From a virus (lineage: Duplodnaviria; Heunggongvirae; Uroviricota; Caudoviricetes): a DNA stretch of 33,423 nt. Location: IMG/VR virus record IMGVR_UViG_2541047939_000004; one strand, 5' to 3'. The position numbers were made by a program, and so were the translations under genes. Shown here one piece after another: positions 3,806 to 20,755 of this stretch. Position 1 is the stretch's first letter. Every line of letters begins with the position of its first letter. The notes under the pieces were generated by a model that worked only from the letters and a program-made list of their open reading frames with translations, ran no database searches and was not told the origin of the DNA.

Positions 3806-4570
3806 TCAATCTCCATTGGTATCAATGTTTACAGCCTGACAAGACTCTTTGAGCACCCAGTCAATAGCGTCTTTCCATGCCTCTGTTTCGACTGGTGGAT
3901 TTTCACGCTTAACCTGTTCATAGAAGCGCACTGCTTTAACCAGTCCTTCCGGTACTACTGGTGATGGCTGTTTAGCTTCTAAATCAGCAATTCTGTCAAC
4001 CACGGCATCGACAGCATCTGAAAAGCCGAACCAGTTGCTCCACTCCGGCTCATCCCCGGTTGCTGCAAAGTACATATCTGCTAAAGCAGATTCAGCATGG
4101 TCACGCTCGTTAATGAGTTGCTCTTCGCTTTTCTCCAGTTCAGCAATACGCTTACCCCCATCCGAGATAACACCTTCGTAATACTCACGCTGCTCGTTGA
4201 GTTTTGATTTTGTCTCCTCAAGCTCAACTCTCAGCTTCCCAACAGTAAGAGCAATATCCTCGTTCTCCTGGTCGCGGCGTTTTATGTATTGCTGGTTTCT
4301 TTCCCGTTCATCCAGCAGTGCCAGCACAGTAGCCGGATTGGCTGCGGCGATGAATTCAGCATTGGCCTGCTGTTCCATTTGGAAATCTTCATCGAAACCG
4401 CTTTCTGGATGCGCTCCTTCAATTCTGCAAATGGGAATATATCCAGCAACTTCACGATGAATTAGCGCATAATCACCATCAAATCGGCTCTCTCCATATT
4501 CGAGCGACCACTCACCACACGTTGCTTTTTCTGCCGCTTCACGCAGTGCCTGATAGTTAATTTCGCTCAC
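3806..4570 (-). CDS. Ead/Ea22-like coiled-coil protein (GTG start)
   Basis: 254-aa ORF; GTG 4570 overlaps TraR-like stop (GTGA); SD GAGAGG; central charged coiled-coil-like segment. Confidence 0.6.
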   Translation of the reverse strand: MSEINYQALREAAEKATCGEWSLEYGESRFDGDYALIHREVAGYIPICRIEGAHPESGFDEDFQMEQQANAEFIAAANPATVLALLDERERNQQYIKRRDQENEDIALTVGKLRVELEETKSKLNEQREYYEGVISDGGKRIAELEKSEEQLINERDHAESALADMYFAATGDEPEWSNWFGFSDAVDAVVDRIADLEAKQPSPVVPEGLVKAVRFYEQVKRENPPVETEAWKDAIDWVLKESCQAVNIDTNGD

Positions 4571-6202: not shown

Positions 6203-6984
6203 GCTGCCACCTTCTGCTCAGTGGCTTTCTGTTTCAGGAATCCAAGAGCTTTCACTGCTTCGGCCTGTGTCAGTTCTGACGATGCGCGAATGTCGCGGCG
6301 AAATATCTGGGAACAGAGCGGCAATAAGTCGTCATCCCATGTTTTATCCAGGGCGATCAGCAGAGTGTTAATCTCCTGCATGGTTTCATCGTTAACCGGA
6401 GTGATGTCGCGTTCCGGCTGACGTTCTGCAGTGTATGCGGTATTTTCGACAATGCGCTCGGCTTCATCCTTGTCATAGATACCAGCAAATCCGAAGGCGA
6501 GACGGGCACACTGAATCATGGCTTTATGCCGTAACATCCGTTTGGGATGCGACTGCCACGGCCCCGTGATTTCTCTGCCTTCGCGGGTTTTGAATGGTTC
6601 GCGGCGGCATTCATCCATCCACTCGGTAACGCAGATCGGATGATTGCGGTCTTTGCGGTAAATCCGGCATGTACATGATTCATTGTCCTGCTCAAAGTCC
6701 ATACCATCAAACTGCTGGTTTTCATTGATGATGCGGGACCAGCCATCAACGCCCACCACCGGAACAATGCCGTTCTGCTTATCAGGGAAGGCGTAAATTT
6801 CTTTCGTCCACGGATTAAGGCCGTACTGGTTGGCGACGATCAACAATGCGATGAACTGCGCATCGCTGGCATCACCTTTAAATGCCGTCTGGCGAAGAGT
6901 GGTGATCAGTTCCTGTGGGTCGACAGAATCCATGCCGACACGTTCAGCCAGCTTCCCTGCCAGCGTTGCGAGTGCTGTACTCAT
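6199..6984 (-). CDS. bet: Recombinase Bet (Red beta)
   Basis: 261 aa, near-identical to remembered lambda Bet. Confidence 0.95.
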
Positions 6985-6989
6985 CCGTT

Positions 6990-7286
6990 TTATACCTCTG
7001 AATCAATATCAGCCTGATGGTGAGCAATGGTTTCAACTATGTACCGGATGTGTTCTGCCATGCGCTCCTGAAACTCAACATCGTCATCAAACGCACGGGT
7101 AATGGCTTTTTTGCTGGCCCCGTGGCGTTGTAAATGATCGATGCATAGCGATTCAAACAGGTGCTGGGGCAGGCCTTTTTCCATGTCGTCTGCCAGTTCT
7201 GCCTCTTTCTCTTCACGGGCGATCTGCTGGTAGTGACGCGCCCAGCTCTGAGCCTCAAGACGATCCTGAATGTAATAAGCGTTCAT
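6990..7286 (-). CDS. gam: Gam, short form (RecBCD inhibitor GamS)
   Basis: 98 aa [21 protein letters not shown]... matches lambda GamS; SD AGGAG upstream. Confidence 0.9.
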
Positions 7287-7361
7287 GGCTGAACTCCTGA
7301 AAATGGCTGTGAAAATATCGCCCGCGAAATGCCAGGCTGATTAGGAAAACAGGAAAGGGGG

Positions 7362-7505
7362 TTAGTGAATGCTTTTGCTTGATCTCAGTTTCAGTATTAA
7401 TATCCATTTTTTATAAGCGTCGACGGCCTCACGAAACATCTTTTCATCGCCAATAAAAGTGGCGATAGTGAATTTAGTCTGGATAGCCATAATTGTTTGA
7501 TCCAT
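7362..7505 (-). CDS. kil: Kil (host cell-division inhibitor)
   Basis: Internal ATG gives 47 aa [47 protein letters not shown], matching remembered lambda Kil; the track ORF is an N-terminal over-extension. Confidence 0.7.
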
Positions 7506-7638
7506 TTTTTGGGACTCCTGGCTGATTAAGTATGTCGATAAGGCGTTTCCATCCGTCACGTAATTTACGGGTGATTCGTTCAAGTAAAGATTCGGAAGGG
7601 CAGCCAGCAACAGGCCACCCTGCAATGGCATATTGCAT
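7474..7638 (-). CDS. cIII: CIII (FtsH inhibitor)
   Basis: Hand translation from ATG 7638: [47 protein letters not shown]... matches lambda CIII; 54 aa, absent from the track (<60 aa); 32-nt overlap with kil as in lambda. Confidence 0.75.
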   Translation of the reverse strand: MQYAIAGWPVAGCPSESLLERITRKLRDGWKRLIDILNQPGVPKNGSNNYGYPD

Positions 7639-7710
7639 GGTGTGCTCCTTATTTATACATAACGAAAAACGCCTCGAGTGAAGCGTAATTGGTATGCGGT
7701 AACGCCGCGC

Positions 7711-8079
7711 TCAGGCGGCCTTGATAGTCATATCATCTGAATCAAATATTCCTGATGTATCGATATCGGTAATTCTTATTCCTTCACTACCATCCATTGG
7801 AGGCCATCCTTCCTGACCATTTCCATCATTCCAGTCGAACTCACACACAACACCATATGCATTTAAGTCGCTTGAAATTGCTATAAGCAGAGCATGTTGC
7901 GCCAGCATGATTAATACAGCATTTAATACAGAGCCGTGTTTATTGAGTCGGTATTCAGAGTCTGACCAGAAATTATTAATCTGGTGAAGTTTTTCCTCTG
8001 TCATTACGTCATGGTCAATTTCAATTTCTATTGATGCTTTCCAGTCGTAATCAATGATGTATTTTTTGATGTTTGACAT
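7711..8079 (-). CDS. ea10: Ea10-like protein
   Basis: 122-aa ORF at the lambda ea10 position between cIII and ral; ATG at 8079. Confidence 0.65.
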   Translation of the reverse strand: MSNIKKYIIDYDWKASIEIEIDHDVMTEEKLHQINNFWSDSEYRLNKHGSVLNAVLIMLAQHALLIAISSDLNAYGVVCEFDWNDGNGQEGWPPMDGSEGIRITDIDTSGIFDSDDMTIKAA

Positions 8080-8675: not shown

Positions 8676-9257
8676 ATGAACAACTCATGGTGGCAGGAAC
8701 TAATGCATTTTTTCCTGCAAGGAATGACACTTAAACAGTTGATTCATATGCTAATCATCCTGATCATATTGATTATTGTTATGCCGGTAAGCGTAAAAGA
8801 ATGGATAAACCTGCATAGTCCAGAAATCCTTCCTCATTACTGGATGTATTACATCCTGTTGTTTTGCGTTAGCTATGTGCTTAACGGCGTTGTTAATTCC
8901 GCTTATCACGCTGTGACTGAAAGAATTGAGGTATTCGCTGCTCAGAAGCGCAAATCTAAAGAAGAAAAATATGTGCAAGATTTGTTTGATTCGTTAACTC
9001 TTGGAGAAAGAGCGTATTTGGCATTCGCTGTAGCCGCTAATAACCAGCTACAAACGGAAAAGGGCGCTCATGAATCAATTTCATTGCTCAAAAAAGGACT
9101 CCTCGTTCGAAGGCCTCCTGCTGTTGGATATCCTGATACCGACCGTTTCGTTATCCCTGAAAGCTATAGACATGAGTGCTACATTAGGTTTGCCGGGAAG
9201 GCAGACAGCCTTATGGATGAACTTATCGCTCAGGATAAGCATGGCAAAAACAAGTAA
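8676..9257 (+). CDS. sieB: Superinfection exclusion protein B
   Basis: 193 aa MNNSWWQELMHFFLQGMTLKQLIHMLIILIIL... matches remembered lambda SieB; plus strand opposite to the pL operon, as in lambda. Confidence 0.85.
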   Translation: MNNSWWQELMHFFLQGMTLKQLIHMLIILIILIIVMPVSVKEWINLHSPEILPHYWMYYILLFCVSYVLNGVVNSAYHAVTERIEVFAAQKRKSKEEKYVQDLFDSLTLGERAYLAFAVAANNQLQTEKGAHESISLLKKGLLVRRPPAVGYPDTDRFVIPESYRHECYIRFAGKADSLMDELIAQDKHGKNK

Positions 9258-9273
9258 TTAGCAAATGAATTTA

Positions 9274-9546
9274 TCATCTCGCCGTCAGTTGTTTTGATTT
9301 CCGGTAGCCTGCCGCGTAAAGAGCTACGTTCGGAAGACAAGTTGAACCTTCATATTTTCTGGTCAACGTTGTCAGAGTTATCACTTCTGCTCTCATTGCT
9401 GGTTTGAGCTTGCATTGCAAGACCACTCGTGAAGGGGTTGGCCTGTGTAGCTTGTCGGAGCTGATCGCCTCCTGACTTTGCAGATTTGCGCGACGAGCTC
9501 TACGGCGAGAAGCTGCGGTGCCTTTAAATTCTGTTTTTCTGGACAT
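9274..9546 (-). CDS. N: N-like antiterminator (non-lambda specificity)
   Basis: ATG 9546 with SD GGGAGG; N-terminal arginine-rich motif KTEFKGTAASRRRARRA like phage 21/P22 N ARM; first gene downstream of pL/nutL. Confidence 0.65.
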   Translation of the reverse strand: MSRKTEFKGTAASRRRARRANLQSQEAISSDKLHRPTPSRVVLQCKLKPAMRAEVITLTTLTRKYEGSTCLPNVALYAAGYRKSKQLTAR

Positions 9547-9729: not shown

Positions 9730-9790
9730 GGTTAAATAGTACGATATGTACTTTACAAGATCAATACAATTTGTTGTAAGTTGGCGTGGT
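9730..9790 (-). promoter_or_regulatory. pL/OL region candidate
   Basis: 15-bp palindrome AGTACGATATGTACT (9738-9752) between -35-like TTGATC and -10-like TACTAT on the minus strand; AGTAC-containing sites recur in OR. Confidence 0.4.
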
Positions 9791-9950
9791 TTTTTATAAC
9801 GCTTTGTATTTAATAGTGTTGTTTTTTAGCGTGGATGTATTGCCTCGGCGATGTAAGGAGAGATCAGAATTGCGTGGTTTAGTGGGTTGCATCTATTTAT
9901 TTTTCAATAAATATAATTGGTTATGTGTTTTTAGGTGGGCGAACGTGAGG

Positions 9951-9977
9951 CAAAGAAAACCCGGCGCTGAGGCCGGG
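9951..9977 (-). terminator. Intrinsic terminator ending the cI-distal immunity operon
   Basis: CCCGGC-6 nt-GCCGGG hairpin (9960-9977) followed on the minus strand by TTTTCTTTG; 5 nt after the 9983 stop. Confidence 0.55.
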
Positions 9978-9982
9978 TTGTA

Positions 9983-10735
9983 TTATGCTGCAAGTCTCTT
10001 AACCCAAGTCTCTCTTTTGGAGAATGGTAGAACTTGGCTTGATTCATGGAAGAGTAAGGAGAGTTGTTGCATTTGATCACCAATTGCTTCGCTGTCTATA
10101 ACAACAAATCTGTTGTTATACTCCTCACTTGAAGCTTTAAGATCAATTAGTTTCCCAAGCAATGAGTAAGCACTATTCCAGCTTCCTCCGTGTTTCACGC
10201 TTGATGTAAAAACGTATTTAGGTATGTCGGTTTTTATTGTTACAGGGACGGTAATTTGATGTCCACTCAAGCCATATACGTTTTCACGAAGAGAAAGTGC
10301 GTCTCTAAGCTCTGTGTGATATAGATAATCAATAACCATACTTTCAAACTTTTCAGCTTGAACTGGCTGATACCAGTCTAACGACAAAGTTGATGCGAGT
10401 ATACCAGCTCTAATTATGTTCGATGTAATCGCACCGACATCCTTTTCTGTTGCCCAAGCAATGATTTCTCCTCGAGCATTGAGTTCTGCGCCTTCTTTAA
10501 GCAGTAATTGTCGTATCTCATCAAGTCGTTTTTTGGTAAGCGAGATCCCTCTTGCCTCCATATTCATTAAGGCATCGCATCTGTCACTAACTAAATACCT
10601 ACCATTGACTTCACGGATAAAGGCACCGACATGCTCTCCATCATCACAGTAAGTGAATGGACTGATAATTCTCAAGGTCTTGCCTATTGGATGGCATTCG
10701 AAACCTAGTTGTGAGATCACTGTTGAGCACATCAT
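9983..10735 (-). CDS. Uncharacterised protein, distal gene of rex-position cassette
   Basis: 250-aa ORF, ATG 10735 overlaps upstream stop (ATGA); no TM segment; no motif I recognise; AT-rich codon usage. Confidence 0.7.
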   Translation of the reverse strand: MMCSTVISQLGFECHPIGKTLRIISPFTYCDDGEHVGAFIREVNGRYLVSDRCDALMNMEARGISLTKKRLDEIRQLLLKEGAELNARGEIIAWATEKDVGAITSNIIRAGILASTLSLDWYQPVQAEKFESMVIDYLYHTELRDALSLRENVYGLSGHQITVPVTIKTDIPKYVFTSSVKHGGSWNSAYSLLGKLIDLKASSEEYNNRFVVIDSEAIGDQMQQLSLLFHESSQVLPFSKRETWVKRLAA

Positions 10736-11289
10736 ATTCCAAACCCCATTTGCCCCGACTCATCTTCAAGCGGTAAAGGTATTCTCCCAGAGTAAGTTAT
10801 GTTCAGATGTTTACAGAAGTAATTCCAATACCCTACCAGGTCATCTGGGTTTATGTCATCTTCGATTGGAAACGCTATTCTATCACTATAGTATCCAGCT
10901 TCTTCATAGTATACATGGTAGTGAGCACCGTAAATGATATCTTGGTACTTCGGATGATCGACCTTGTAACTATTCGTGTGTTTGTCAAAGTGATAGGTAT
11001 CTACCGCGAAAACCCTCTTGTTATGATAGAAAGCAATAATATTTATTTTAGGGTAAGAAATCGGGTCATCAGGTTCTGAATCCTGATCTGGTTTCCATTT
11101 CAGTTCAAACTTTAGCCCTTGTATAGGTATACAATCCTCATCCAAGGGGATGATATGGGCTTGTAGCCACATATCAGAGCGACTTGGTTTCTGTTTCCAT
11201 TTAACGCCAGAAAAGTTAACTATTTTTTTACAATAAAGTACTTTATCAACTTCTACTTGGCTTGGCTGATAATCATCTATTTTTGCCAA
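10732..11289 (-). CDS. Uncharacterised acidic His/Tyr-rich protein, proximal gene of rex-position cassette
   Basis: 185-aa ORF starting 39 nt downstream of cI stop with SD-like GGGCGG; acidic runs (DQDSEPDDP, EDDINPDD) and HYHVYYEE; no TM segment. Confidence 0.7.
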   Translation of the reverse strand: MAKIDDYQPSQVEVDKVLYCKKIVNFSGVKWKQKPSRSDMWLQAHIIPLDEDCIPIQGLKFELKWKPDQDSEPDDPISYPKINIIAFYHNKRVFAVDTYHFDKHTNSYKVDHPKYQDIIYGAHYHVYYEEAGYYSDRIAFPIEDDINPDDLVGYWNYFCKHLNITYSGRIPLPLEDESGQMGFGI

Positions 11290-11328
11290 TGTTTACCGCC
11301 CTGTAAATTGTAGATAAAAGTGGTTTCA

Positions 11329-11988
11329 TCACCCAAACGTCTCTTCAGGCCATTGGCTGGCGATAACTTTCCCCACAACGGAACAACTCTCATTGCATGG
11401 GATCATTGGGTATTGTGGGTTTAGTGGCTGTAGAAACACCTGACCGCTATCCCTGATCAGTTTCTTGAAGGTAAATTCATCACCACCAAGTCTGGCTATG
11501 CAGAAATCGCCGGGCTCAACAGCTTGCTCAGGGTCAACCAGAATTAACATCCCGTCAGGAAAGCTGGGTTTGGAACCTGTTGGTGCGGTCATTGAGTTAC
11601 CTTCAACCTCAAGCCAGAATGCAGAGTCACTGGCTTTTTTGGTTGTGCTTACCAATCTCTCCGTATCGCCTTTGGTAAAGGTTCTGAGTTCTGGAGAGAA
11701 CATCCCAGCCTGAACATGAGAAAAAACAGGGTACTCATATTGTTTTTTAACTGGGGCCGATGAGTATTCGCCAACAGGTGAAAATGTCCCGTCGTGGTTG
11801 AATGATATGTTATCAATACCAAGGTATTTAAACACCACACCAATATCACTAAGAGATGGATGACGAGATCCGCGCAACCAGTGTCCAATCCCACCCTGCG
11901 TCATACCTAGCTCTTCGGCTAACTTCTCTTGAGTTATGCCGAGCTCTTTCATTCTGGATCTAGCCAGTTCATACCATTTCATTTTCAT
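11329..11988 (-). CDS. cI: CI-type repressor (HTH plus S24 LexA-like autopeptidase), non-lambda immunity
   Basis: N-terminal HTH ([20 protein letters not shown]) and C-terminal S24 motifs (GNSM...K); divergent from cro across OR; start at ATG 11988 (or 11982). Confidence 0.85.
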
Positions 11989-12099
11989 GTCCTTATTATT
12001 ACGCTCTGTACTGGAACCATCCATGCACAATGTGTATTTTTACTTGTATTCGCAAAGTACATATTGTATTTTTTTATTCGTGTTTACTATGGAGGGCAT
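11989..12099. promoter_or_regulatory. OR operator / pRM-pR divergent promoter region
   Basis: 111-bp cI-cro intergenic region with several imperfect AGTAC/GTACT-containing palindromes (e.g. AGTACATATTGTA) similar to the OL palindrome; exact hexamers not resolved. Confidence 0.55.
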
Positions 12100-14383: not shown

Positions 14384-14670
14384 CGGGCAAAGAGGCAATT
14401 ATTCATTACCTGGGGACGCATAATAGCTTCTGTGCGCCGGACGTTGCCGCGCTAACAGGCGCAACAGTAACCAGCATAAATCAGGCCGCGGCTAAAATGG
14501 CACGGGCAGGTCTTCTGGTTATCGAAGGTAAGGTCTGGCGAACGGTGTATTACCGGTTTGCTACCAAGGAAGAACGGGAAGGAAAGATGAGCACGAACCT
14601 GATTTTTAAGGAGTGTCGCCAGAGTGCCACGATGAAACGGATATTGGCGGTATATGGAGTTAAAAGATGA
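14380..14670 (+). CDS. ren: Ren
   Basis: 96-aa ORF at the lambda ren position, overlapping P stop. Confidence 0.8.
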   Translation: MTGKEAIIHYLGTHNSFCAPDVAALTGATVTSINQAAAKMARAGLLVIEGKVWRTVYYRFATKEEREGKMSTNLIFKECRQSATMKRILAVYGVKR

Positions 14671-14743
14671 CCATCTACATCACTGAGCTAATAACAGGCC
14701 TGCAGGTAATCGCAGGCCTTTTTATTTGGGGGAGAGGGAAGTC

Positions 14744-15184
14744 ATGAAAAAACTAACCTTTGAAATTCGATCTCCGGCACATCAGCAAAACGCTATTCAC
14801 GCAGTACAGCAAATCCTTCCAGACCCAACCAAACCAATCGTAGTAACCATTCAGGAACGCAACCGCAGCTTAGACCAAAACAGGAAGCTATGGGCCTGCT
14901 TAGGTGACGTCTCTCGTCAGGTTGAATGGCATGGTCGCTGGCTGGATGCAGAAAGCTGGAAGTGTGTGTTTACCGCAGCATTAAAGCAGCAGGATGTTGT
15001 TCCTAACCTTGCCGGGAATGGCTTTGTGGTAATAGGCCAGTCAACCAGCAGGATGCGTGTAAGCGAATTTGCGGAGCTATTAGAGCTTATACAGGCATTC
15101 GGTACAGAGCGTGGCGTTAAGTGGTCAGACGAAGCGCGACTGGCTCTCGAATGGAAAGCGCGATGGGGAGATCGGGCTGCATGA
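14744..15184 (+). CDS. ninB: NinB (recombination protein)
   Basis: ATG 14744 after G-rich SD; MKKLTFEIRSPAHQQNAIHAVQQILPD... matches remembered lambda NinB. Confidence 0.9.
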   Translation: MKKLTFEIRSPAHQQNAIHAVQQILPDPTKPIVVTIQERNRSLDQNRKLWACLGDVSRQVEWHGRWLDAESWKCVFTAALKQQDVVPNLAGNGFVVIGQSTSRMRVSEFAELLELIQAFGTERGVKWSDEARLALEWKARWGDRAA

Positions 15185-15708
15185 CTATCAAATCAAATAC
15201 GCCAGCACACGACAAGGACTGCTGGCAAACGCCGCTTTGGCTTTTTGATGCACTGGATATTGAGTTTGGATTCTGGCTGGATTCGGCAGCGAGCGACAAA
15301 AATGCTCTGTGCGCTCACTGGCTAACTGAGGACGACGACGCGCTCAATTCTGAGTGGGTAAGCCACGGTGCAATCTGGAATAACCCACCGTACAGCAATA
15401 TCAGGCCGTGGGTGGAAAAAGCCGCTGAGCAGTGTATACAACAGCGACAGACGGTAGTGATGCTTGTGCCAGAGGATATGTCTGTCGGATGGTTCAGCAA
15501 GGCTCTGGAGAGTGTTGACGAAGTTCGTATTATCACTGATGGACGGATTAATTTTATCGAACCATCGACAGGGCTGGAGAAGAAGGGAAACAGCAAAGGC
15601 TCCATGCTGCTGATTTGGCGACCGTTCATCAGTCCTCGACGGATGTTTACTACCGTATCCAAAGCGGCATTGATGGCGATCGGGCAGGGCGTCAGGAGGG
15701 CTGCATGA
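15181..15708 (+). CDS. Phage Dam-like DNA N6-adenine methyltransferase
   Basis: ATG 15181 overlaps ninB stop (ATGA); NPPY motif (WNNPPYSN) and phage N6-A MTase-like sequence; occupies the lambda ninC/ninD position. Confidence 0.8.
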
Positions 15709-17588: not shown

Positions 17589-18671
17589 TTAGAACTGATA
17601 AACCAGACCTACAGCGACGATGTCGTCGGTATCAATACCAGCTGTTTTGGTAAACTTACTATCGTCAATTAAGTTGATTTTGTAATCAACAAAAGTGGAC
17701 ATGTTTTTATTAAAGTAGTAAGTAGCACCGACATCGACATACTTGACTAAGTCTCGGTCACCATGAACACCAAGGTCTTTACCTTTTGACTGAAGGTAAG
17801 CAACAGATGGACGCAGACCGAAGTCAAACTGATATTGTGCTACTGCTTCAAAGTTTTGTGCTTTGTTTGCAATATGGTTATTACCAAAAACGGTCATATT
17901 CTGAGTTTCAGAATATGTGGTAGCCAGATAGATATTGTTCGCATCATATTTCAGGCCTGCAGCCCATACTTCCGCATTTTTGCCGGAGGCATTGAATTTG
18001 CTCTTACCATAGGCGACCTGACCGTCAGTGCGATCTGATTTAGCATAGGTTGCACCCACGCCGAATCCTTCATACTCATAAGTAGTGGAGAAACCGAAAC
18101 CATCACCATTGGCTTCAGTTACGTCAGTGCGGTCATTTTTACCCTGATACTGAGCAGCAAAGTTCAGGCCATCGACCAGACCAAAGAAGTCGTTGTTACG
18201 ATAAGTTGCAACACCAGTAGTGCGACCAGTCATGAACACATCTGTTTGGGTCCAGGTATCACCACCGAATTCTGGCAGAACGTCAGTCCACGCACCGATG
18301 TCGTATGCTACACCGTAGTTACGGCCGTAATCGATTGAGCCGTAATCACCAAATTTCAGGCCTGCAAATGCAAGACGGGTTTTGTCTTTGGAAGAACCTT
18401 GAGATTCAGCACGGTTGCCTTTGAATTCATATTCCCACTGACCGAAACCAGTCAGTTGATCGTTGATTTGGGTTTCACCTTTGAAGCCAAGACGGGCATA
18501 AGTAGTATCACCATCATCTGCATCATTAGAGGAGAAGTAGTGCTTGGCATTAACTTTCCCGTATAGATCCAGCTTGTTACTGTCTTTATTATAAATTTCA
18601 GCTGCCTGAGCAGACATCGCCATCAGTACTGATGCAGCTACAGCAGAAATTGCCACTGTTAATTTTTTCAT
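17589..18671 (-). CDS. nmpC: Outer-membrane general porin (NmpC/Lc/OmpC family), intact
   Basis: ATG 18671 with SD; signal peptide [23 protein letters not shown]; porin sequence ending ...GLVYQF; antisense to the late operon. Confidence 0.9.
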
Positions 18672-19097
18672 TGTACGCCCTTTTTTTGAACTATTATTAA
18701 AAAATGATGTCACTGCGCGATAAATATTCATCTAATCAATGTGATTATTTCAAGATGTAAGTTTTAGTTTCTCATTTAATTTGTGAAGTAGATCTCTATT
18801 TTTATCTGAACCTTTTCTATCTAATCCTATTCATGGCTCTTGTCTGAACAAAAATAAATCTATTAGCTAATTTATATTAATGGCACTTATTTATAAGTGC
18901 TCTATAATTCTTTAGCTTAATTTAAACAAACTAAAAATAACATCGGAAATTATTAACTGGTTATTTGTTGAAGTTTTCTTATGCATTTGTGGTGGTGTTT
19001 TGAACACTCGGTGGCATTCTCACAAATATCATTTAGTAGTTTACGTACGTAAAAAATTGGTTATGCTGTTAAGAGTGGTTACTTCGTCACACAGCTT

Positions 19098-20461: not shown

Positions 20462-20755
20462 TTATTGTGAGCAATACACACGCGCTTCCAGCGGAGTATA
20501 AATGCCTAAAGTAATAAAACCGAGCAATCCATTTACGAATGTTTGCTGGGTTTCTGTTTTAACAACATTTTCTGCACCACCACAAATTTTTGCTGCATCG
20601 ACAGTTTTCTTCTGCCCAATTCCCGAAACGAAGAAATGATGGGTGATGGTTTCCTTTGGTGTTACTGCTGTAGGTTTGTTTCCAACAGTAAACGTCTGTT
20701 GAGCACATCCTGTAATAAGCATTGCCAGAGCGGCAGAAAACAACATTTTTTTCAT
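20462..20755 (-). CDS. bor: Bor lipoprotein (serum resistance)
   Basis: ATG 20755; MKKMLFSAALAMLITGCAQQTFTV... matches remembered lambda Bor. Confidence 0.85.
   Translation of the reverse strand: MKKMLFSAALAMLITGCAQQTFTVGNKPTAVTPKETITHHFFVSGIGQKKTVDAAKICGGAENVVKTETQQTFVNGLLGFITLGIYTPLEARVYCSQ

What the first reader, a model, noticed from the sequence alone, without database searches (positions are those of the whole stretch)
9951..11328. Uncharacterised two-gene cassette in the rexA-rexB slot of the immunity region: candidate lysogen-expressed phage-exclusion module
In lambda the segment between cI and pL carries rexA-rexB, co-transcribed with cI in lysogens. Here a cI of different immunity specificity is followed 39 nt later by a 185-aa acidic His/Tyr-rich ORF (10732-11289), ATGA-coupled to a 250-aa ORF (9983-10735), and capped 5 nt after the stop by a hairpin plus U-run terminator (9960-9977). 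Neither protein has a TM segment (RexB has four) and neither resembles RexA, RexB or any defence or toxin family I can recognise by eye. The block is visibly AT-richer than the flanking lambda-like DNA, consistent with a horizontally acquired moron. The rex slot is a known hotspot for exclusion functions in lambdoid prophages, so position and operon structure argue for a defence or host-fitness role even though the mechanism is unknown.
Basis: partly seen in the sequence, partly recalled or inferred. Interest (0 to 1): 0.85.

Follow-up and report, generated by a model that had tools for sequence, protein, structure and literature searches.

The report
Untested defence-candidate gene pair behind prophage repressor
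Two tightly coupled genes of unknown function sit directly behind the repressor gene of this lambda-like phage, where lambda keeps its rexAB exclusion genes; they are very probably an anti-phage module made in lysogens, but others have already predicted this by computer and nobody has tested it.

Summary
The window is Escherichia phage PhiR57_1. cI (11329-12030, -) is followed after 39 nt by gene A (185 aa, TTG start, 10732-11289). A overlaps gene B (250 aa, 9983-10735) by ATGA. A strong terminator (9958-9979) follows, and OL/pL and N lie beyond it, as with lambda rexAB.

Neither protein resembles RexA or RexB. B has a DUF1828 domain (secretion-chaperone/YbjN-like fold) and a DUF1829 domain (restriction-endonuclease fold, but no canonical catalytic motif). 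B usually ends in an ssrA-like LAA. A is an all-beta protein with no structural relative, an invariant Asp/His/Asn cluster and a conserved flexible tail.

The pair is always together. In 79 of 80 viral contigs, and in prophages of about a dozen genera, it lies just downstream of a repressor; these repressors form 39 types at 70% identity. Both genes are under strong purifying selection. The cassette is in 250 of 5426 complete E. coli genomes, including Nissle 1917.

It is not unrecognised. It is distantly related to the untested PADLOC candidate PDC-M24. DefensePredictor lists these exact proteins as predicted defence genes, and they are absent from its tables of tested systems.

Verdict: a credible, untested lysogen-expressed defence candidate whose mechanism is only inferred.

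The parts
11329..12030 (-). cI-type repressor (HTH_3 + Peptidase_S24); annotated as 11329-12024 in PV340572.1. Upstream gene of the operon.
11290..11328 (-). 39-nt cI-A intergenic spacer. The scan found no terminator-like site here.
10732..11289 (-). Gene A: 185 aa, TTG start, acidic. The model is an all-beta meander with one helix (151-162) and a disordered but conserved C-terminal tail (175-185). Invariant across the wider family: W31, R92, D97, N106, H123, H125, F158, P173; nearly invariant: K22, H104, G121. PHROG 2017. Weak matches to DUF6978 and PDC-M24A.
9983..10735 (-). Gene B: 250 aa, ATGA-coupled to A. The N-terminal DUF1828 domain has a secretion-chaperone/YbjN-like fold. The C-terminal DUF1829 domain has a restriction-endonuclease-like fold. 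The protein ends in ...RLAA. PHROG 1960. Full-length match to PDC-M24B.
9950..9979 (-). Intrinsic terminator closing the cI-A-B unit: stem-loop 9979-9958 followed by a U-run.
9744..9756 (.). Operator-like half-site (ATATGTACTTT) shared in reverse complement with the OR region. It marks OL/pL to the left of the cassette.
12054..12066 (.). Matching operator-like half-site in the cI-cro intergenic region (OR/pRM/pR).
9274..9546 (-). N antiterminator gene; left boundary of the variable cI-N slot.

Best explanation
A and B form a two-protein anti-phage module that the prophage expresses in the lysogenic state, in the same slot as lambda rexAB.

Shown here:
- The genes lie between cI and OL/pL, on the cI strand, with no terminator before them and a strong one after them.
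- They are translationally coupled (ATGA) and are never found apart.
- They travel behind many different repressors.
- They are under purifying selection.

Inferred:
- They are transcribed with cI from pRM/pRE, so they are made in lysogens and shut off when cI is cleaved. That would spare the resident phage during induction.
- A and B form a complex. B would use its chaperone-like DUF1828 domain for dimerisation or for binding a peptide. That peptide could be A's conserved flexible tail (ExSGQxG-hydrophobic) or a phage protein. B's DUF1829 endonuclease-fold domain would bind or cut nucleic acid.
- A contributes a conserved Asp/His/Asn pocket (D97, H104, N106, H123, H125) that looks like a metal or catalytic site.
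- An infecting heterologous phage activates the pair in one of two ways. Either a phage product is sensed directly, or B is depleted. B's ssrA-like LAA end suggests ClpXP turnover, so host shut-off could deplete it.
- The outcome is attack on phage or host nucleic acid: exclusion or abortive infection.

I cannot decide which protein is effector and which is sensor or regulator.
For: - Anatomy identical to rexAB.
- 80 of 80 IMG/VR loci have A next to B. 79 of 80 have a cI-like repressor upstream on the same strand, 29-442 nt from A.
- These repressors, together with 15 from other loci, form 39 clusters at 70% identity and 16 at 50%.
- The same arrangement occurs in Klebsiella (Rac-like prophage), Aeromonas, Thorsellia, Yersinia, Providencia, Xenorhabdus, Izhakiella, Pantoea, Pseudomonas (D3-like phage) and Azotobacter.
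- The cassette occurs at 99.3% DNA identity (B protein identical) behind a different cI in an Stx1a phage. The same cI carries two unrelated cassettes in other phages. The slot therefore swaps cargo.
- The cI-N slot is a documented hotspot with rexAB and bstA (PMC8585504).
- Independent computational support: PADLOC PDC-M24B E = 4.7e-10 over the full length and PDC-M24A E = 4.8e-4. PDC systems were derived from cassettes embedded in BREX, DISARM or type I RM loci.
- DefensePredictor log-odds are 5.64 for B and 4.90 for A, against a cut-off of 4. 45% of the 94 tested units in that study were validated.
- dN/dS is about 0.05-0.13.
- 69 of 110 full-length B homologues end in LAA and 96 of 110 end in xAA.
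Against: - There is no experimental evidence of expression or of any phage-resistance phenotype for this pair.
- Neither accession occurs in DefensePredictor's tables of tested and validated units, which are held uncut, so it appears untested there.
- The canonical PD-(D/E)xK catalytic residues are not conserved in B. His159 sits where the Asp is expected, there is no conserved acid before K173, and K173 is lost in the Pseudomonas clade. The domain may only bind, or may be inactive.
- The match to PDC-M24A is weak and partial.
- One lineage carries the pair outside any prophage.
- Repressor linkage shows expression in lysogens, not what the genes do.
- The LAA degron reading rests on general knowledge of ClpX recognition, not on a test.
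Confidence: 0.55

Rival explanations
1. The pair is a toxin-antitoxin-type addiction module that stabilises the prophage or its immunity region. One partner is toxic and the other, proteolytically labile, neutralises it. Any phage defence would be secondary or absent.
For: The two genes overlap by ATGA and are strictly co-inherited. A is acidic and upstream, and B has a nuclease fold and is downstream, which is the canonical antitoxin-then-toxin order. B has a conserved ssrA-like LAA end, which suggests one unstable partner. A mostly uses weak GTG or TTG starts. One lineage carries the pair alone in a chromosome.
Against: There is no match to any toxin or antitoxin family in Pfam, NCBIfam or PADLOC. 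Neither protein has a DNA-binding antitoxin domain. The degron sits on the nuclease-fold protein, which is the wrong partner under the canonical order. Both proteins are larger than typical type II pairs. Strict placement behind repressors fits lysogen-expressed cargo better than a free-standing addiction module. Many TA systems are themselves defence systems, so this rival overlaps the main reading.
Confidence: 0.15
2. The pair is an accessory regulator of the lysis-lysogeny switch rather than a weapon against other phages. It might tune induction, cI stability or protease availability, for example by occupying ClpXP, by analogy with the anti-cell-death role reported for lambda RexB.
For: Linkage to repressor genes of 39 types is near-invariant. 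B has an ssrA-like C-terminus. I recall from the literature that RexB, in the same slot of lambda, inhibits ClpP-dependent proteolysis; I did not check this here.
Against: The slot is interchangeable: the same cI works with unrelated cassettes, so the switch does not need A-B. One lineage lacks any prophage context. Relatives defined as PDC-M24 are embedded in BREX, DISARM or RM loci, not next to repressors. DefensePredictor scores both genes as defensive.
Confidence: 0.1
3. The pair is a lysogenic-conversion moron that benefits the host in a way unrelated to phages, such as stress tolerance, colonisation or virulence.
For: It is AT-rich acquired cargo expressed in lysogens. The genomes listed among the top hits include many extraintestinal and commensal isolates, such as Nissle 1917, UM146, NU14 and APEC O18. 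bstA in the same slot was first linked to virulence phenotypes.
Against: Both proteins are cytoplasmic, with no signal peptide or TM segment. One has a nuclease-clan fold. Nothing points to a metabolic or surface function. The distribution follows temperate phages across genera with very different lifestyles.
Confidence: 0.1

Closest known systems
Lambda RexA-RexB
   Same: Same genomic slot (between cI and OL/pL), same strand as cI, two genes, its own terminator, and therefore probably the same lysogen-specific expression.
   Different: No sequence similarity (BLASTP E > 2). RexB is a small membrane protein, while A and B have no TM-like segment. The Rex genes do not overlap (15 nt apart). Different folds.
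PADLOC phage defence candidate PDC-M24 (Payne et al. 2024, bioRxiv 10.1101/2024.01.29.577857)
   Same: Two-gene cassette in the same order. B matches the PDC-M24B profile over its full length (E = 4.7e-10). A matches the C-terminal third of PDC-M24A (E = 4.8e-4). This corresponds to a DUF6978-like plus DUF1828 architecture.
   Different: PDC-M24 was defined from cassettes embedded in BREX, DISARM or type I RM loci and is itself untested. The pair here is a divergent, prophage-borne, repressor-linked branch. The A match is too weak to call membership.
DefensePredictor predictions and DS-6 (DeWeirdt et al., Science 2026, PMC13092281)
   Same: The identical proteins WP_000968518.1 and WP_001062368.1 are listed as predicted defence genes. 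The DUF1829 domain of B (PDDEXK clan) also occurs in DS-6B of the validated system DS-6.
   Different: This pair does not appear in the tables of tested or validated units. DS-6 pairs a DUF3037-DUF1829 protein with a HipA-like kinase, not with DUF1828 or an A-like protein.
BstA of Salmonella prophage BTP1
   Same: Prophage defence gene placed directly downstream of the repressor, with conserved synteny across genera and its own terminator.
   Different: BstA is a single protein with a cognate DNA self-immunity element. There is no homology; PADLOC gave no BstA match.
PD-(D/E)xK restriction-endonuclease-fold proteins (NgoMIV, Cfr10I, PspGI, Can2 nuclease domain)
   Different: The catalytic D...(D/E)xK signature is not conserved. 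The invariant residues are S157-G158-H159, D198 and R209, and K173 is only clade-specific.

Membership tests
RexAB (lambda) | Sequence homology to RexA and RexB | tested here: not met
   BLASTP of A and B against lambda RexA and RexB gave no hit with E < 2. No Rex model hit in PADLOC.
RexAB (lambda) | Membrane-spanning RexB-type partner | tested here: not met
   Maximum 19-residue Kyte-Doolittle means are 0.45 (A) and 1.19 (B), so no TM-like segment.
RexAB (lambda) | Location between cI and OL/pL, co-oriented with cI, closed by a terminator | tested here: met
PADLOC PDC-M24 | Protein matching the PDC-M24B profile | tested here: met
   E = 4.7e-10; residues 2-249 against profile positions 4-254 of 256.
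PADLOC PDC-M24 | Adjacent upstream protein matching the PDC-M24A profile | tested here: inconclusive
   E = 4.8e-4; only residues 104-163 against profile positions 79-134 of 148. DUF6978 is matched weakly by 16 of 18 family members.
PADLOC PDC-M24 | Embedded in, or associated with, BREX, DISARM or type I RM loci | tested here: not met
   Every locus examined is in a prophage immunity region or, in one case, a plain chromosomal context.
PD-(D/E)xK nuclease superfamily (B C-terminal domain) | Restriction-endonuclease-like alpha-beta-beta-beta-alpha-beta fold | tested here: met
   [not shown]
PD-(D/E)xK nuclease superfamily (B C-terminal domain) | Conserved catalytic D ... (D/E)xK residues | tested here: not met
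   H159 precedes strand 2, where the Asp is expected. There is no conserved acid two residues before K173, and K173 is not invariant once Pseudomonas homologues are included. I had no model coordinates, so residue placement is read from secondary structure only.
Secretion-chaperone / YbjN-like fold (B N-terminal DUF1828) | alpha-beta-beta-beta-alpha-beta-beta-alpha fold | tested here: met
   [not shown]
Type II toxin-antitoxin | Homology of either partner to a known toxin or antitoxin family | tested here: not met
   No such family in Pfam, NCBIfam or PADLOC.
Type II toxin-antitoxin | Toxicity of one partner, neutralised by a labile partner | not testable with these tools
   Only indirect hints: the ATGA overlap and the LAA end of B.
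Lysogen-expressed moron in the cI-N hotspot | Variable cargo between the repressor and OL/N, exchangeable between immunity types | tested here: met
   The same cI carries three different cargos. The same cargo lies behind 39 repressor types at 70% identity.
Lysogen-expressed moron in the cI-N hotspot | Transcription in the lysogen | not testable with these tools
   No RNA data found. Inferred from the absence of a terminator between cI and A.

The most novel reading that the evidence does not exclude
A-B is a mechanistically new, repressor-coupled abortive-infection system. A would be a new-fold metal-dependent effector. A nuclease-fold, chaperone-like partner (B) would hold it in check or arm it, and ClpXP turnover of B through its LAA end would act as the infection timer. 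The cassette would also be the missing factor behind the resistance of E. coli Nissle 1917 prophage 3 to lambda and Stx phages, which the cloned pr gene explained only partly (PMC5987069).
Probability: 0.2. Interest if true: 0.7.

Novelty: new variant of a known kind. Interest (0 to 1): 0.5.

Why it matters
If validated, this would add a widespread defence system with an orphan-fold component to the list of cargos of the classic rex slot. It is in about 4.6% of complete E. coli genomes, including the probiotic Nissle 1917 and reference strains ATCC 25922 and ATCC 11775. It occurs in temperate phages from Enterobacterales to Pseudomonas. It would also be a clean example of a defence whose expression is wired to the prophage repressor across dozens of immunity types. 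It could matter in practice for phage therapy and for engineering Nissle. It would give a first function to DUF1828, DUF1829 and DUF6978-like proteins. The value is tempered in two ways: hundreds of defence systems are now known, and two computational screens have already flagged this one.

Tried and rejected
- Sequence searches of PDB with profiles of A and B found nothing meaningful.
- The wider A profile hit a designed Kelch propeller (8pjr, E = 7e-12). This is the sum of six identical repeats of about 7 bits each, matching the short motif RIYAV...H.N. I rejected it as repeat inflation.
- The afdb50 library was unavailable.
- Pfam by HMMER did not detect DUF1829 in any of 25 B homologues. 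The assignment comes from HHblits in a published table.
- The genome-contig scan gave only 8 loci.
- Literature checked and found not to apply: Tai systems and HepS.
- Literature that is adjacent but not about A-B: the svsR sRNA of prophage NC-SV. Its supplements gave no usable expression values for prophage genes.
- The Nissle pr gene is a 410-bp amplicon, not this cassette.
- No paper was found for PhiR57_1, for DUF1828 or DUF6978 in any relevant sense, or for the protein accessions in main texts.
- The alternative cassette of PhiR11_1 has no Pfam or PADLOC hit.
- The promoter scan is uninformative: 5 sites found against 7.1 expected.

Full report
**What the window is.** The window is the left 33.4 kb of Escherichia phage PhiR57_1 (PV340572.1, induced from ECOR13). 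The region 9900-12100 matches that record at identical coordinates and 100% identity. The same 2.2 kb is identical in phages ev207, ev017 and PhiR63_2. The 1378-nt cassette is present at 99% identity or more in 250 of 5426 complete E. coli genomes, always on the chromosome. These include Nissle 1917, ATCC 25922, ATCC 11775, UM146 and NU14.

**Checking the observation.**
- cI (11329-12030, minus strand; HTH_3 plus Peptidase_S24) is followed after 39 nt by ORF A (10732-11289, 185 aa, TTG start).
- A's TGA overlaps the ATG of ORF B (9983-10735, 250 aa) as ATGA.
- Three bases after B's stop lies an 8-bp, GC-rich hairpin (9979-9958) followed by TTTTCTTT. Its energy is -17 kcal/mol, z = -3.4.
- The scan found no terminator-like site between cI and A.
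- An 11-nt operator-like half-site in the cI-cro spacer (12054-12066) recurs in reverse complement at 9744-9756. OL/pL therefore lies left of the terminator and right of N (9274-9546). The order N - OL - terminator - B - A - cI - OR is that of lambda N - OL - rexB - rexA - cI - OR.
- A is acidic (pI 5.27) with 8.6% Tyr and 4.3% His. Neither protein has a TM-like stretch.
- The cassette is 40.0% GC, against 46.2% for cI, 49.5% for N and 48.8% for the window. sieB next door is also 41%.
- The unusual TTG start is real. The first 39 residues are conserved, beginning with an invariant MAK. Nine of ten enterobacterial and Aeromonas lineages start A on GTG or TTG.
- Against homologues 58-77% identical in protein, dN is 0.15-0.30 with dS saturated. 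dN/dS is about 0.05-0.13 wherever dS could be estimated, so both genes are under strong purifying selection.

**What the proteins are.** Neither resembles RexA or RexB (BLASTP E > 2).

B:
- B carries Pfam DUF1828 at residues 26-110 (E = 5e-8) and belongs to PHROG 1960, of unknown function.
- Its AlphaFold model (pLDDT 80) has two domains.
- HMMER did not find a Pfam family for the second domain. A published HHblits table for the identical protein assigns residues 155-241 to DUF1829, clan PDDEXK, at 98.8% probability. This agrees with the fold search.
- The classical catalytic D...(D/E)xK signature is not kept. The conserved residues are S157-G158-H159 (before strand 2), D198 and R209. K173 is conserved only within the enterobacterial clade. 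The domain is nuclease-like in fold, but its activity is uncertain.
- The DUF1828 domain is the more conserved half. It holds an acidic and Cys cluster: C3, C14, D32, D51, D54 and E90 are invariant, and E13, D31, E34 and E60 are nearly so.
- 69 of 110 full-length homologues end in LAA and 96 end in xAA, across lineages only 25% identical. From general knowledge of ClpX recognition of ssrA-like C-termini, this suggests regulated proteolysis. That is an inference.

A:
- A belongs to PHROG 2017, of unknown function. It matches DUF6978 only weakly and only over residues 104-164 (E = 2e-4, below the Pfam cut-off; seen in 16 of 18 relatives).
- Its model (pLDDT 82) is a beta-meander sheet with one helix and a disordered tail.
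- The family is small: 20 representatives at 50% identity among 1.8 billion proteins.
- Across its full breadth the invariant residues are W31, R92, D97, N106, H123, H125, F158 and P173. H104 and G121 are nearly invariant. This looks like a metal or catalytic pocket.
- The flexible C-terminal tail keeps a GQ core followed by hydrophobic residues in most lineages, from E. coli to Pseudomonas. That suggests a docking peptide.

**Context elsewhere.** This is the strongest result.
- In 80 of 80 IMG/VR contigs carrying B, an A homologue sits immediately upstream. In 79 of 80, a cI-like repressor lies upstream on the same strand, 29-442 nt from A.
- Together with 15 loci from genomes and phages, those repressors form 39 clusters at 70% identity and 16 at 50%.
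- The arrangement holds in a Klebsiella Rac-like prophage with a short HTH repressor, and in Aeromonas, Thorsellia, Yersinia, Providencia, Xenorhabdus, Izhakiella, Pantoea, Azotobacter and Pseudomonas D3-like phages.
- In Pseudomonas phage VB_PaD_phPA-G the A gene is present but unannotated.
- The ATGA junction is kept in 15 of 16 lineages.
- In E. coli the same cassette sits behind a different cI and N in an Stx1a phage: 99.3% DNA identity, with an identical B protein.
- This window's cI is followed by unrelated cargo in PhiR11_1 and 2G7b, and in O157 Stx phages.
- The slot is therefore a cargo-swapping hotspot, as described for rexAB and bstA (PMC8585504).
- One uncultivated lineage carries the pair outside a prophage, so it is a self-contained module.

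**Prior knowledge.** I found no paper that characterises these proteins. Two screens have flagged them.
- B matches PADLOC's PDC-M24B over its full length (E = 4.7e-10), and A matches PDC-M24A weakly (E = 4.8e-4). PDC systems are 145 untested candidates derived from cassettes embedded in BREX, DISARM or type I RM loci. PDC-M24 is cassette CAS_00098, listed with a count of 153.
- DefensePredictor (Science 2026) lists exactly WP_000968518.1 (B, log-odds 5.64) and WP_001062368.1 (A, 4.90) as predicted defence genes in the genome set described as mainly ECOR strains, with a cut-off of 4. Neither accession occurs in the tables of tested or validated units, which are held uncut. Overall, 45% of their tested units were validated.
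- DUF1829 also occurs in the validated system DS-6.
- Separately, the Nissle 1917 prophage that carries this cassette was implicated in resistance to lambda and Stx phages. The cloned pr gene explained that only partly, and the authors asked for other prophage genes to be examined (PMC5987069).

**Interpretation.** The most likely reading is a lysogen-expressed, two-protein anti-phage module. I put this at about 0.55, given the anatomy, the repressor linkage, the hotspot precedent and two independent computational flags.

The mechanism is inferred:
- co-transcription with cI;
- an A-B complex;
- a nucleic-acid-directed activity based on B's DUF1829 domain and/or A's conserved pocket;
- activation by a phage cue or by loss of labile B;
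- shut-off on induction, when pRM falls silent.

The rivals are a prophage addiction module (0.15), a modulator of the lysis-lysogeny switch or of ClpXP (0.10), and a phage-unrelated host-fitness moron (0.10). The TA reading overlaps the main one, because many TA systems also defend.

**Verdict.** This is a good, testable candidate with an orphan-fold component and an unusually clean genomic signature. It is a predicted, untested member of a crowded class, so I score interest at about 0.5 and not 0.85.

Noticed in passing
L021:4420-5004 (Pseudomonas phage VB_PaD_phPA-G, PP083311.1, about 14449-15033): An unannotated ORF, probably starting at MAKQ, is a homologue of gene A (28% identity, pairwise E = 1e-10). 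It is ATGA-coupled to the annotated hypothetical CDS0029, which is a B homologue. It lies downstream of the CI-like repressor and one extra ORF.
   Followed up: yes
window 9983-9994 (C-terminus of B) and homologues P0022-P0162: B ends in ...RLAA. 69 of 110 full-length homologues end in LAA and 96 of 110 in xAA. This ssrA-like end suggests ClpXP-dependent turnover.
   Followed up: partly
L013:4044-4385; also L015 and L016 at about 4052-4394: In Izhakiella and Providencia prophages an extra 113-aa DUF3024 gene sits between the repressor and gene A. This is a second cargo in the same slot, and may account for the larger repressor-to-A gaps of about 290-440 nt seen in some viral contigs.
   Followed up: partly
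L002:3080-4460 (PhiR11_1/2G7b) and L030:2476-2997 (Stx1 phage AP005153): The same cI as in this window is followed in other phages by unrelated cargo: 163 aa plus 283 aa proteins with no Pfam or PADLOC hit, or ORF b63. These are further untested candidates in the slot.
   Followed up: partly
L027-L029 (metagenome contigs), pair at about 6495-7765: One lineage carries the A-B pair outside any prophage, next to recB- and recD-like genes. The significance is unknown.
   Followed up: no
window 8676-9257 (+): A sieB superinfection-exclusion gene (Pfam SieB E = 9e-22) lies just left of N. The immunity region therefore carries a second exclusion function beside the cassette.
   Followed up: no
window 11329-11450 (3' end of cI): A 2026 paper places a 77-nt sRNA, svsR, at the 3' end of cI of the icd-integrated lambdoid prophage NC-SV of E. 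coli NC101 and credits it with reduced phage adsorption. That paper mentions strain SF-468 as lacking one of NC101's other prophages, and SF-468 carries this cassette at 100% identity. I did not verify whether NC-SV has the same cI and cassette; if it does, A-B could contribute to that prophage's phenotype.
   Followed up: partly
L003 (E. coli Nissle 1917, NZ_CP022686.1 4786142-4788424): In Nissle the prophage is integrated at icd. An ISEc52 insertion truncates it between a partial integrase gene and sieB. sieB, N, the cassette, cI and the replication genes are retained.
   Followed up: no
window 17589-18731 (-), 20462-20755 (-), 15181-15708 (+): The deposited record annotates other accessory genes: an OmpD/NmpC-like porin between Q and the lysis genes, bor, and a Dam-like N6-adenine methyltransferase in the nin region.
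   Followed up: no
[not shown]
   Followed up: yes
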